Part shown: in pieces, positions 15,765 through 19,267 of the stretch
How the letters are laid out: each line of letters begins with the position of its first letter
Position numbering within the stretch: position 1 is the stretch's first letter
Assembly (NCBI GenBank): GCA_963812015.1
Contig: CAWETI010000003.1
Location: 864,001 to 928,000, forward strand
Direction: 5' to 3'
Source: an uncultured delta proteobacterium
GTDB taxonomy: Bacteria > Desulfobacterota > Desulfobaccia > Desulfobaccales > 0-14-0-80-60-11
DNA length: 64,000 bases
Program-made: the position numbers and the translations under genes
The notes under the pieces: model-generated
Databases searched by the model: none
What the model was told of the DNA's origin: nothing
Seen by the model: only the letters and a program-made list of their open reading frames with translations

Positions 15765-16025
15765 TCACAATATCATTGCCAGGTCGCCTATCTCCGTTAA
15801 GGGTCTGCCAATATGCTGGCTAATGGTGCGATATAGGGATTTAAGGTGCCGGGAGTTTCCAAGCGTTGTTATGCCGCGCAGTTTATGACCTGCGTCGTCG
15901 GCTTCGATATAAATGTATTCCAGGAGCCCGTCCTTGTGAAGCTTGACCGTCATCAAGACCCCTGCTTCACCGGCTCCCTCGTCTGTCACGGCCGATTGAG
16001 TGGCCAGACGGGAAGTTGCATCCAT
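15765..16025 (-). CDS. Hypothetical protein
   Basis: 86-aa ORF with plausible composition; no recognised motif. Confidence 0.4.
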   Translation of the reverse strand: MDATSRLATQSAVTDEGAGEAGVLMTVKLHKDGLLEYIYIEADDAGHKLRGITTLGNSRHLKSLYRTISQHIGRPLTEIGDLAMIL

Positions 16026-16474: not shown

Positions 16475-16590
16475 ATACCAAGTTGCCGTCATAAAGGTAA
16501 TTCTGGTTTTATGATAGCAACCCCTGTAGGGGCGGTTCGCGAAACACCTCTACAATTCAGATTATTACACGTTTGACGGCAACTTGGTAT
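16475..16590. mobile_element. 116-bp MITE-like element with perfect 17-bp IRs and an internal GTAG-type REP
   Basis: ATACCAAGTTGCCGTCA (16475) and TGACGGCAACTTGGTAT (ends 16590); GTAGGGGCGGTTCGCGAAACACCTCTAC at 16526-16553. Confidence 0.7.
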
Positions 16591-16646: not shown

Positions 16647-16690
16647 AAAAAAAAAGCCGCATTGCCTGTCCTCATCAAGGCAACCCGGCT
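16647..16690 (-). terminator. Intrinsic terminator serving as the riboswitch expression platform
   Basis: AGCCGGGTTGCCT...AGGCAATGCGGCT followed by a long U run; the 5' arm overlaps the aptamer 3' strand. Confidence 0.85.
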
Positions 16691-16757
16691 ATCTCTTCAA
16701 TGAGACCCGCGGCTTTCCGTCCCCGCCTCGCGACGGGTTTGGCTTTGTCTGCTACCG
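16676..16757 (-). ncRNA. c-di-GMP-I (GEMM-I) riboswitch
   Basis: Minus strand reads AGCCAAACCCGTC-GCGA-GGCGGGGACGGAAAGCCGCGGGTCTC...AGATAGCCGGGTTGCC, matching the GEMM consensus. Confidence 0.92.
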
Positions 16758-16870
16758 ACAATTAATGCAAAAATTATGCTACCGGCTTACCCTAAAATAT
16801 CAATAAATGATTTTGTTAATTAAGTTACGCCGTTTATTTATTTATCAATCTGAATATACCATTTAATTTA

Positions 16871-17852
16871 TATGCTTATTGCTTTTGCTCCGGTCCATAT
16901 GCTATAATTAACTAGAATAAATAGCAAATTTGAGCAAAATCATGCAACAGAAAACTCTCAGTCTGCTGCAATTTCAGAAAAAGTTTGGTACTGGGAAAGC
17001 CTGTCAGAAACAATTGTTTCGGTTGCGTTGGCCCGAAGGCTTCAAGTGCCCTCGCTGTGGTCAAGCGGAAGCTTATTTTCACAGTAAGCGCCACTTATAT
17101 CAGTGCAAATCCTGCGGTTACCAAGCTTCATTGACCGCAGGCACAGTGTTTCACAAGACCAGAACCCCCTTAACCAAATGGTTTTGGCTGATCTGGCTGA
17201 TGGGACGCCAGAAAAGCGGCATCTCCATGCTGTCGATGCAACGGATGTTGGAGATCAAGACCTACAAAACCGTGTGGACCATGGGCCACAAGATTCGCAA
17301 AGCCCTGGCCGACCGGGATGCTAATTATAAACTCGCCGGCTTAATTGAGATGGACGACACTTACTTCGGGGCTCCCAAGACCGGGAAGCGCGGCCGCGGC
17401 GCCGCCGGCAAGGCCAAAGTGGTAGTGGCGGTGGAAACCCCGAAAAATAAGCCCAGATTTGCCGTTATGCACATCGTCCCGAGAGTCAGCGCCCAGGAGA
17501 TTCAGGCCCTGGTAAGGGAGCGTCTGGTGGAAGAAGTGGTGGTCAAAACCGACGGTTGGCAAGGATATAGCTTTCTGGATGCTTTGCCCTACCGCCATGA
17601 GTGGCTCGTTCCCGGTTCGGGGAAAGAAGCGCCGAAGGTCCTGCCCTGGGTCCACACCTTGATCGCCAATATCAAAGGCAATATCCGCGGGGTCCATCAC
17701 GGCGTCAGCCAAAAGCATCTGCCCCGTTACCTGGCGGAATTCTGTTACCGCTTCAACCGGCGCTTCTGGGAACCGCAAATGTTTAACCGCATGCTTCATG
17801 CTTGCGTGAATACCTCGGGCATTACATTCTCGGAGCTAAGGCAATAAGCGTA
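16871..17852 (+). mobile_element. IS1595-family insertion sequence
   Basis: 22-bp imperfect IRs (TATGCTTATTGCTTTTGCTCCG / CGGAGCTAAGGCAATAAGCGTA) and 8-bp target duplication TTAATTTA (16863-16870, 17853-17860). Confidence 0.95.
16930..17847 (+). CDS. IS1595-family transposase
   Basis: N-terminal Zn ribbon (CPRC, CKSC), IEMDDTYFG, TDG and YLAEFCYRFNRR motifs. Confidence 0.95.
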   Translation: MSKIMQQKTLSLLQFQKKFGTGKACQKQLFRLRWPEGFKCPRCGQAEAYFHSKRHLYQCKSCGYQASLTAGTVFHKTRTPLTKWFWLIWLMGRQKSGISMLSMQRMLEIKTYKTVWTMGHKIRKALADRDANYKLAGLIEMDDTYFGAPKTGKRGRGAAGKAKVVVAVETPKNKPRFAVMHIVPRVSAQEIQALVRERLVEEVVVKTDGWQGYSFLDALPYRHEWLVPGSGKEAPKVLPWVHTLIANIKGNIRGVHHGVSQKHLPRYLAEFCYRFNRRFWEPQMFNRMLHACVNTSGITFSELRQ

Positions 17853-17941
17853 TTAATTTATTAAAGATAAACCCTGATCAACAAAATTTCCCCCACCAAG
17901 CCAAAAAAGATAAATAGGGTGCCTGGCCCTGATTGTTTGCT

Positions 17942-18006: not shown

Positions 18007-18281
18007 ACTTGACCAGGGAGATCAAGGAGTTCTTGGTCCCTCGAAGATTGATATATGTCAGAGAGGAGAAAGTGTGTCTCGGTTTGAACAACCAGAGATA
18101 GGAAAAGAACAGGCCAGTGTGGTAGATTTTATTCCCGTAAGATTGTTAGGTACTGCTTCTATAATCAGAACATTTATCACAGAGCCAAAAACCTTCCATA
18201 TCCAGTTAATATCAATCATTTTTCCCACCCAAGCGATAATTAACGATCCTGGCAAGTAATTAATTACTTTCAATCGGCCAC

Positions 18282-18311
18282 AAAAAAGGCAGGGCCATGG
18301 CTGACCCTGCC
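18282..18311 (-). terminator. Intrinsic terminator after tRNA-Cys
   Basis: GGCAGGGTCA-GCCA-TGGCCCTGCC followed by TTTTTT on the minus strand. Confidence 0.85.
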
Positions 18312-18329
18312 AGTTTTATACTTCTTAAA

Positions 18330-18404
18330 TGGAGGCGGCATCCGGAGTCGAACCGGATAAATACGGCCTTGCAAACCGTCGCCTTGCCTCTTGGCTATGC
18401 CGCC
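18330..18404 (-). tRNA. tRNA-Cys (GCA), slightly atypical
   Basis: GGCGGCA/TGCCGCC acceptor stem, U73 discriminator, encoded CCA, TTCGACT T-loop, anticodon loop TTGCAAG. Confidence 0.88.
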
Positions 18405-18407
18405 CCA

Positions 18408-18472
18408 TAAAGCGGAAAATCTAAAGACCCGTGGCTTTTCGTCCCCGCCTCACAGCGCGTTTGGCTTTTTCT
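18408..18472 (-). ncRNA. Degenerate GEMM-I-like motif in the tRNA-Cys leader
   Basis: AAAGCCAAACGCGCT-GTGA-GGCGGGGACGAAAAGCCACGGGTCT closely parallels the riboswitch at 16676-16757; the 3' strand has diverged. Confidence 0.65.
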
Positions 18473-18481
18473 GTAGGATGC

Positions 18482-18510
18482 ATTATAGCATGATGGCAGT
18501 TTCCCGTCAA
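18482..18510 (-). promoter_or_regulatory. Near-consensus sigma70 promoter
   Basis: TTGACG-17 bp-TATAAT with an extended TG motif. Confidence 0.85.
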
Positions 18511-18667: not shown

Positions 18668-19267
18668 TCACCCGGGGAAATCGGTGTTGGAGATGGTAGC
18701 CGCCAAGTGGGCTGGCAGGTCTTGCACATAGAGTTTCAGGCATGTTTCCACGACGGCCGCATCGTAGAGAATCCCTCTGTTCCTGGTGAGTTCATCCAGG
18801 GTTTCTGCCAGGCCCAGGGAGGCGCGGTAAGGACGATGGGAGCACATGGACTCCATCACATCGGCCACGCCCAGGATTCTGGCTTCCAGAAGGATTTCCT
18901 CCCCTCTCAGGCCCTGGGGATAGCCGGAGCCATTCACCCGTTCGTGATGTTGCAGAATAATCATGGCAGTGTGGCCCGGCAGGGTGATAGGTTCCAGAAT
19001 GTTGAAGGCTACCTCAGGATGGGTTTTAAGCAGGGCGAACTCCAGGGGAGTGAGTTTCCCTGACTTGGAAAGCAGTTCAGTAGGGATGGCGATCTTGCCC
19101 AGGTCGTGAAGCATGCCGGCCATCCGCAGATCACGGAGGCGGTCCTCGGACAGTCTCATCTTCCTGCCGATGTTACAGGCTATCTGGCTTACCCGCCGTT
19201 GATGCCCAACCGTATATGGGTCCCGGGCCGCCATCGTGGACTCCAGCACCTGAATGAGCGCCTCCAT
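18668..19267 (-). CDS. HD-GYP cyclic-dinucleotide phosphodiesterase (stand-alone, possibly N-truncated)
   Basis: D.YT.GH..RV, HDLGK, HHERVNGSGYPQGL and RPYR motifs. Confidence 0.92.
   Translation of the reverse strand: MEALIQVLESTMAARDPYTVGHQRRVSQIACNIGRKMRLSEDRLRDLRMAGMLHDLGKIAIPTELLSKSGKLTPLEFALLKTHPEVAFNILEPITLPGHTAMIILQHHERVNGSGYPQGLRGEEILLEARILGVADVMESMCSHRPYRASLGLAETLDELTRNRGILYDAAVVETCLKLYVQDLPAHLAATISNTDFPG

What the first reader, a model, noticed from the sequence alone, without database searches (positions are those of the whole stretch)
18282..18510. Promoter - GEMM-like RNA - tRNA-Cys - terminator transcription unit
Seen: a near-perfect sigma70 promoter (TTGACG-17-TATAAT) is followed within ~10 nt by a GEMM-I-like motif. 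The motif has a P2 with GTGA tetraloop and GACGAAAAGCCACGGGTCT. A complete tRNA-Cys(GCA) with CCA follows, then a terminator. The aptamer's usual 3' strand (AGATAGCCGGGTTGCC in the copy at 16.7 kb) is degenerate, while the tRNA 5' part contains ATAGCC..GGC, which could substitute for it. Known: c-di-GMP-I riboswitches normally precede protein genes. Inference: either cyclic-dinucleotide control of tRNA folding or processing, or a tRNA that captured a decaying riboswitch leader. The tRNA is atypical (U31-G39 pair, G38) and lies in an accessory island.
Basis: partly seen in the sequence, partly recalled or inferred. Interest (0 to 1): 0.78.

Follow-up and report, generated by a model that had tools for sequence, protein, structure and literature searches.

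The report
Spare cysteine tRNA behind broken riboswitch
A second, apparently working cysteine tRNA gene has taken over the promoter and terminator of a cassette normally run by a c-di-GMP sensor RNA; here the sensor is cut in half and probably dead, but a related genome still has an almost intact sensor in front of the same kind of tRNA, which could be a natural case of a signalling molecule switching a tRNA gene on.

Summary
The unit is real (minus strand): extended sigma-70 promoter, 5' half of a c-di-GMP-I (GEMM) aptamer, a 15-nt spacer, a second tRNA-Cys(GCA), a terminator. It is no assembly artefact: contigs from two other studies span it without gaps at about 95% identity. Promoter, aptamer half and terminator come from a genus-wide GEMM-to-PEP-CTERM cassette; the tRNA sits where the surface-protein gene was, and the spacer resembles the 3' end of the tRNA-Gly that precedes tRNA-Cys in the housekeeping operon. 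The aptamer's own 3' strand and attenuator are missing, and it has two changes seen in 0 of 61 other GEMMs of the genus. The tRNA looks selected (10 changes, no broken pair). Best reading: a constitutive spare tRNA-Cys behind a dead riboswitch (0.65). The more interesting lead is genome G022 (another genus): a complete GEMM (67.6 bits) with attenuator, a tRNA-Gly fragment, then tRNA-Cys. No RNA data; the scan had not noted this before.

The parts
18505..18510 (-). -35 hexamer TTGACG
   Evidence: homologous promoter in GEMM/PEP-CTERM cassettes of G008, G005, G014
18482..18490 (-). extended -10 element (TG-C-TATAAT); closer to consensus than in the three homologous cassettes aligned
   Evidence: start of transcription inferred near 18475
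18420..18474 (-). 5' half of a c-di-GMP-I (GEMM) aptamer: P1 5' strand, G20 equivalent (18465), P2 with GUGA tetraloop, C44 (18441), A47 (18438), P3 5' strand; lesions at 18458 (G.G in P2) and 18439 (C.A next to the pocket)
   Evidence: numbering by my alignment to the Vc2 numbering
18405..18419 (-). 15-nt spacer, probably the eroded 3' end of tRNA-Gly(GCC); can pair with the P2 3' strand (14 bp), not beyond chance
   Evidence: 41 of 5000 shuffles match tRNA-Gly as well; 277 of 2000 shuffles fold as well
18330..18404 (-). second tRNA-Cys(GCA), CCA encoded; 10 changes from the housekeeping copy (C20, G26, A27, U32, G38, G39, A44, U45, A48, C59)
18312..18329 (-). 18-nt 3' trailer
18282..18311 (-). 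intrinsic terminator of a family that ends PEP-CTERM genes in this genus
16675..16752 (-). complete paralogous GEMM aptamer with attenuator, separated from the unit by IS1595 (16930-17847); comparison standard
18668..19267 (-). HD-GYP-type phosphodiesterase gene upstream, same strand (context)

Best explanation
An accessory, functional tRNA-Cys gene expressed without ligand control from the promoter of a former GEMM/PEP-CTERM cassette. Shown: the promoter, aptamer 5' half and terminator are homologous to cassettes that carry a full GEMM, an attenuator and a PEP-CTERM gene in relatives; the tRNA occupies the place of the attenuator and gene; the aptamer lacks its 3' strand and has two lesions. 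Inferred: a 'tRNA-Gly 3' end + tRNA-Cys' fragment, duplicated from the Gly-Cys operon (an integrase target), was joined into the P3 loop; loss of the attenuator makes the roughly 190-nt transcript constitutive; RNase P and 3' trimming release a chargeable tRNA that adds Cys decoding capacity (the island uses UGU more often) or an anticodon-loop variant. The aptamer half persists as the transcription start region. A G022-like unit (full ON-switch, Gly fragment, tRNA-Cys) is a plausible model of the precursor.
For: Cassette homology: L014 (G008) matches 126 nt of promoter+aptamer at 83% and the terminator and flank, with a PF07589 gene between; 17 of 38 GEMM rows examined had a PEP-CTERM-like tail in the first ORF, judged by eye; 5 of 11 copies of this terminator follow such a tail or a frameshifted one, by eye. 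Aptamer decay: among 62 pattern matches in 18 genomes of the genus, the other 61 all have G where this has A (18439) and C/T where this has G (18458) (counted by eye); 12 of 21 pairs. tRNA selection: 10 changes, 0 of 20 pairs broken, 0 of 16 invariant bases hit; random placement gives no broken pair in 0.3-1.2% of runs. Gly origin: 41 of 5000 shuffles; the X2 variant is closer to the Gly end; integrase genes adjoin Gly-Cys in 4 of 28 loci. Conservation: X2 record 12 (18250-18467) and X7 record 24 (18250-18464), 10 differences and no gap each, two studies; X6 record 16 covers 18252-18387 with 4; depths imply they keep U32, G38, G39, A44 (my inference from table 3). UGU is 56 of 121 Cys codons in long island ORFs against 492 of 1931 in 800 kb of C2 (crude ORFs).
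Against: No expression or charging data. The predicted leader helix reaches position -1 and in the unconstrained fold invades the acceptor stem (acceptor pairs about 0.33 probable; cloverleaf 3 kcal/mol above the ensemble), and paired leaders hinder RNase P (PMC7897497), so processing may be poor. All three ligand-contact bases and the C44-G83 equivalents survive in the chimera. I could not read the aptamer letters of the X2 and X7 contigs, so decay is shown for this genome only. Promoter similarity points to the genus-g1 cassettes, not G022, so the G022-like precursor is a model, not a demonstrated ancestor. The UGU bias follows from lower GC and does not show need.
Confidence: 0.65

Rival explanations
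1. Chimeric riboswitch: the tRNA's 5' arm completes P3 and the pocket, so c-di-GMP traps a misfolded precursor and lowers mature tRNA.
For: cmscan aligns the chimera end to end with G20, A47, C92 and C44/G83 equivalents present and a GNRA loop. The C92 equivalent is tRNA C20, a change from housekeeping U20. The spacer length is kept in two other studies.
Against: 12 of 21 pairs, P1 absent; 14.6 kcal/mol above the ensemble for the full transcript. C20 also occurs in the G018 and G020 copies that have no GEMM, in G022 whose aptamer is complete, and in 1 of 72 other tRNA-Cys rows.
Confidence: 0.07
2. Leader-helix control: P2 and a 14-bp helix with the spacer are alternative folds that hide or expose the RNase P site, tuning maturation (ligand, protein or temperature).
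For: The helix ends at -1 with pair probabilities 0.67-1.0; X2 changes at -3 and -5 turn G.U into G-C; such masking works in synthetic switches (PMC7897497).
Against: 277 of 2000 spacer shuffles and 869 of 2000 genomic 20-mers fold as well; the unaltered tRNA-Gly end folds better (-22.4 against -18.3). X7 changes -9 in the helix centre and both change -1; a compensating change cannot be excluded. No intact pocket to drive it.
Confidence: 0.08
3. Non-functional relic: an att-type duplicate that landed in a decaying cassette and yields little mature tRNA.
For: Mobile, IS-rich setting; leader may block processing; rare G15.A48, U32.G38, U31.G39; present in 1 of 18 genomes of the genus.
Against: No broken pair or invariant base in 10 changes; consensus promoter better than its homologues; G39, A48, C59 shared with the G018 copy; persistence in other studies.
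Confidence: 0.12
4. Specialised donor tRNA: the variant supplies Cys-tRNA to a FemAB-like GNAT enzyme of the polysaccharide locus rather than to ribosomes.
For: A PF13480/PF04339 gene lies 18 kb away in the same island; 3 of 4 variant copies lie by sugar-nucleotide or polysaccharide genes; PF13480 hits in 4 of 4 genomes with a variant copy against 8 of the other 37.
Against: Post hoc; the G020 hit is below cut-off; the GNATs are not orthologues (no significant match of the G000 protein to those of G022, G018 and five other regions); T-stem and acceptor stem are unchanged, unlike what I recall for non-ribosomal tRNAs.
Confidence: 0.06

Closest known systems
c-di-GMP-I (GEMM-I) riboswitch, Rfam clan CL00126 (best model RF03167; prototype Vibrio cholerae Vc2)
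   Same: P2 with GNRA loop, P3 5' strand, G20/A47 equivalents; sits at the start of a transcript.
   Different: No own P3 3' strand, C92, P1 or attenuator; two lesions; followed by a tRNA, not an mRNA. Although RF03167 scores best, this family has A, not the model's G, at the 47 equivalent.
c-di-GMP riboswitches upstream of PEP-CTERM genes (Methylophaga nitratireducenticrescens GP59, PMC12530212, passages read)
   Same: Same riboswitch-to-PEP-CTERM pairing near polysaccharide genes; the parent cassette of this unit.
   Different: Here the protein gene is replaced by tRNA-Cys.
Synthetic RNase P riboswitch (Ender et al. 2021, PMC7897497; abstract, introduction and passages read)
   Same: Aptamer in a pre-tRNA leader, possible masking of the cleavage site.
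   Different: Engineered, with an intact aptamer and designed sequester helix; here the helix is not above chance and the aptamer is incomplete.
tRNA fragments and extra tRNA genes displaced by tyrosine integrases at tRNA att sites (own knowledge, no paper read)
   Same: Gly 3' fragment plus downstream tRNA-Cys; G022 fragment begins at the anticodon loop; integrases adjoin Gly-Cys operons.
   Different: The displaced tRNA has gained a promoter and terminator and diverged under apparent selection.

Membership tests
c-di-GMP-I riboswitch | Rfam gathering score | tested here: not met
   26.7 bits against 59 for RF03167; lower clan hits were suppressed
c-di-GMP-I riboswitch | P2 hairpin with GNRA tetraloop | tested here: met
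   GUGA loop, 5 of 6 upper-stem pairs, one G.G
c-di-GMP-I riboswitch | P3 helix | tested here: not met
   own 3' strand absent; 6 of 10 pairs if the tRNA is used
c-di-GMP-I riboswitch | P1 helix closing the three-way junction | tested here: not met
   0 of 3 model pairs; canonical copy 2 of 3
c-di-GMP-I riboswitch | Contact bases G20, A47, C92 (PMC4744006) and C44-G83 pair (PMC11705072) | tested here: inconclusive
   G20, A47, C44 in the aptamer half; C92 and G83 only from tRNA C20 and G10
c-di-GMP-I riboswitch | Expression platform (attenuator overlapping the 3' strand in this family) | tested here: not met
   absent here; present in the homologous cassettes and G022
c-di-GMP-I riboswitch | Ligand binding and regulation | not testable with these tools
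   needs probing or ITC
c-di-GMP-I riboswitch (G022 unit, L072:16793-16895) | Score, contact bases, attenuator | tested here: met
   67.6 bits; terminator fold -45.6 against aptamer-forced -34.5 kcal/mol; but the tetraloop is GGCA, not GNRA, whereas 60 of 61 genus-g1 copies are GNRA (by eye)
bacterial tRNA-Cys | Cloverleaf, GCA anticodon, U73, CCA, invariant bases | tested here: met
   (55.6 bits)
bacterial tRNA-Cys | Canonical G15-C48 pair and anticodon stem as in the housekeeping copy | tested here: not met
   G15.A48, U31.G39, U32.G38
bacterial tRNA-Cys | Processing, charging, use in translation | not testable with these tools
   no RNA holder listed

The most novel reading that the evidence does not exclude
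This bacterial family has natural c-di-GMP-riboswitch-led tRNA genes: in G022 an intact ON-switch attenuator gates transcription of a tRNA-Cys, so the second messenger sets tRNA supply, and the window unit is a derived form of the same kind of fusion, possibly with residual control at the processing step.
Probability: 0.25. Interest if true: 0.75.

Novelty: new variant of a known kind. Interest (0 to 1): 0.45.

Why it matters
If the best reading holds, it is a clear case of a tRNA duplicate being domesticated by a riboswitch cassette, with a near-intact (G022) and a pruned (this window) stage visible, plus a small unexplained lineage of variant tRNA-Cys genes. If the G022 switch works, it would be a natural small-molecule riboswitch whose first product is a tRNA, linking biofilm signalling to translation capacity; my searches found only synthetic examples, but the library lacks most subscription papers and I read no supplements, where riboswitch gene-context tables could list such cases.

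Tried and rejected
No RNA holder listed for the stretch; X1 is identical and may be the source sample, so it is not counted. Wider search for GEMM before any tRNA: 3 of 83 class genomes (third has no tRNA); 12 of 401 phylum genomes, the 11 others judged chance or tRNA-free from the printed 80 nt and ARAGORN, not scanned with Rfam; 0 of 13 in another class; metagenome scan 2 hits, both GEMMs without tRNA, and genome-collection scan 16 hits, none with a GEMM P2 by eye. Those two scans covered only 60-90 nt between core and T-loop, would miss a full switch plus whole tRNA, and may omit close relatives. Viral contigs 0 and 0; phages one plain tRNA hit. Split-aptamer idea (tRNA 3' arm or terminator completes P3): best duplex -10.1, matched by 126 of 150 shuffles, 20 kcal/mol above the ensemble. 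Microhomology deletion between the GEMM core and the Gly T-arm: dropped, because the GEMM sequence continues 7 nt further. Link to the second CysRS (CysM-CysRS fusion): it is in 74 of 83 genomes, so it does not track the extra tRNA. Cys demand of PEP-CTERM cargo: those ORFs have 0-4 Cys. C20 pattern in the phylum: 2 of 251, the other a housekeeping copy. The invariant-position list was off by one for the T-loop and was redone. Papers with nothing usable: PMC11124144, PMC12452182, PMC8762117, PMC10043782 (passages), PMC8835794 (no term found).

Full report
Observation. On the minus strand the window holds an extended sigma-70-type promoter (18510-18482), a GEMM-like motif starting about 8 nt later, a tRNA-Cys(GCA) at 18404-18330 and a terminator at 18311-18282. 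The promoter and the GEMM core are far beyond chance (0 of 100 shuffles each). The motif scores 26.7 bits on RF03167 (gathering 59), the weakest of 7 matches in the genome; the neighbour at 16752-16675 scores 73.8. The genome has a housekeeping tRNA-Cys in a Gly-Cys operon on another contig, so this is an extra copy. The lineage is unnamed in my calls; from recall it looks like a Desulfobacterota (deltaproteobacterial) group.

Where the pieces come from. Relatives in the same genus carry the same promoter followed by a complete aptamer, an overlapping attenuator and a secreted protein gene. In G008 the same terminator and downstream flank follow that gene, which ends in a PEP-CTERM motif. PEP-CTERM-like tails end the first ORF behind 17 of 38 GEMM rows examined (by eye), a pairing also reported in Methylophaga (PMC12530212, passages). 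In the window the GEMM sequence stops in the P3 loop, and 15 nt follow that resemble the 3' end of tRNA-Gly(GCC), which lies 2 nt before tRNA-Cys in the housekeeping operon (41 of 5000 shuffles as similar). Integrase genes adjoin Gly-Cys operons in 4 of 28 loci, including a remnant in this genome. I infer that a duplicated Gly-end/Cys fragment replaced the 3' half of the aptamer, the attenuator and the cargo gene.

State of the aptamer. GEMM-I needs P1, P2, P3, contacts G20, A47, C92 and a C44-G83 pair (PMC4744006, PMC11705072; passages). Of 62 pattern matches in 18 genomes of the genus, this is the only one with A at the base paired to C21 and with G at the second P2 position (counted by eye). 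Using the tRNA's 5' arm as 3' strand keeps 12 of 21 model pairs (canonical copy 20 of 21), none of P1, and is about 31 kcal/mol above the nascent ensemble or 14.6 above the full-length ensemble with lighter constraints. Against my reading: that alignment does place G20, A47, C44, G83 and C92 correctly, and the C92 equivalent is the tRNA's derived C20. But C20 is also found in extra copies with no GEMM (G018, G020) and in 1 of 72 other tRNA-Cys rows. A 14-bp helix between spacer and P2 dominates the predicted fold and reaches position -1; it is not better than shuffled spacers (277 of 2000) and the plain Gly end does better, because the Gly acceptor strand happens to complement P2. It could still slow RNase P (PMC7897497, abstract and introduction).

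State of the tRNA. Ten changes from the housekeeping copy break none of 20 pairs and no invariant base; random placement does this in 0.3-1.2% (pairs only) of simulations. Among 83 class genomes, 69 matched the tRNA-Cys pattern and 6 had two matches; G049 (whole-operon duplicate), G070 (identical copy at a contig edge) and G078 (unrelated cluster) were set aside, and a G020 copy missed by the pattern was added. The four solo copies all have C20; three have G39; this one and G018 share A48 and C59. Three lie beside polysaccharide genes. Whether this is common descent or convergence is unexplained.

Conservation. The GEMM-core-to-tRNA-Cys pattern is in 2 of 83 class genomes. Four of 21 listed runs were laid: X1 is identical and may be the source; X2 (study P2) and X7 (study P4) each have one contig spanning terminator, tRNA, spacer and aptamer half with 10 differences and no gap; X6 (P3) covers terminator and most of the tRNA with 4. 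Depth arithmetic implies they keep U32, G38, G39 and A44. Their spacers differ at -1 and -3 (both), -5 (X2) and -9 (X7); their aptamer letters were hidden by other GEMM contigs. So the truncated layout is a stable trait of a small clade.

The sister case. G022 (other genus, 27 GEMM matches) has promoter, complete aptamer (67.6 bits), attenuator, the 3' half of tRNA-Gly from the anticodon loop on, and tRNA-Cys, then a frameshifted epimerase gene. The terminator fold (-45.6) excludes the aptamer fold (-34.5 kcal/mol), the ON-switch logic of the family. The tRNA differs from G022's own housekeeping copy at 3 positions, so it is not a repeat misassembly. Caveats: its tetraloop is not GNRA, the tRNA may be a passenger in an epimerase leader (GEMM precedes an epimerase in L123 too), and it is one genome. 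Wider searches found no further case, within narrow limits (see Tried and rejected).

Mechanism. Most likely (0.65): constitutive transcription of a roughly 190-nt precursor, processed to a working spare tRNA-Cys; the aptamer half is a vestige. Shown: anatomy, homology, lesions, selection signature, recurrence. Inferred: origin by att-type duplication, expression, processing, purpose. Rivals: relic (0.12), leader-helix control (0.08), chimeric riboswitch (0.07), non-ribosomal donor for a FemAB-like enzyme (0.06).

Novelty. Not a member of the c-di-GMP-I family (score, P1, P3 and platform fail); a tRNA-Cys by structure. Searches found no natural riboswitch leading a tRNA gene, only synthetic devices; supplements and most subscription papers were not seen. 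Earlier scan notes hold no look-alike of this unit. Verdict: new variant of a known kind; interest 0.45, carried mainly by the G022 lead and the variant tRNA lineage.

Noticed in passing
L072:16755-17014 (G022:C3:181754-182013): Complete c-di-GMP-I aptamer with attenuator directly followed by a tRNA-Gly 3' half and a tRNA-Cys; candidate riboswitch-gated tRNA gene.
   Followed up: partly
L074:6987-7061 (G018) and L079:5129-5200 (G020): Solo variant tRNA-Cys copies without GEMM that share C20 and G39 (G018 also A48, C59) with the window copy; the G018 copy lies directly before a GDP-mannose dehydratase gene.
   Followed up: partly
window 16475-16590: 27-nt inverted repeat with 62-nt spacer in the long leader downstream of the canonical GEMM; no credible Rfam match.
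   Followed up: partly
window 15765-16025: 86-aa ORF without Pfam match, first gene behind the canonical GEMM, ahead of a lytic transglycosylase gene.
   Followed up: no
L146:2199-4520 (G000:C2): Cysteine synthase (CysM-like) fused to a second, divergent CysRS; homologues in 74 of 83 class genomes besides the ordinary CysRS; not mentioned in the passages of PMC8762117 that I saw.
   Followed up: partly
L147:17872-18957 (just before the window start): FemAB-like GNAT gene in a PEP-CTERM/XrtA-type polysaccharide locus.
   Followed up: partly
G000:C3:1137589-1137662: Second 'tRNA-His' is an att-type 3' fragment next to an integrase, 11 kb from the intact gene.
   Followed up: no
G022 whole genome: 27 GEMM matches in 3.2 Mb, several in tandem.
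   Followed up: no
window 16865-17858: IS1595 with 28-nt terminal inverted repeats between the two GEMM units; an IS1595 also lies upstream of the G022 unit.
   Followed up: no
L005 (G000:C3:429543-429621): A GEMM directly ahead of an ORF that resembles the window's HD-GYP gene, a possible feedback loop.
   Followed up: no
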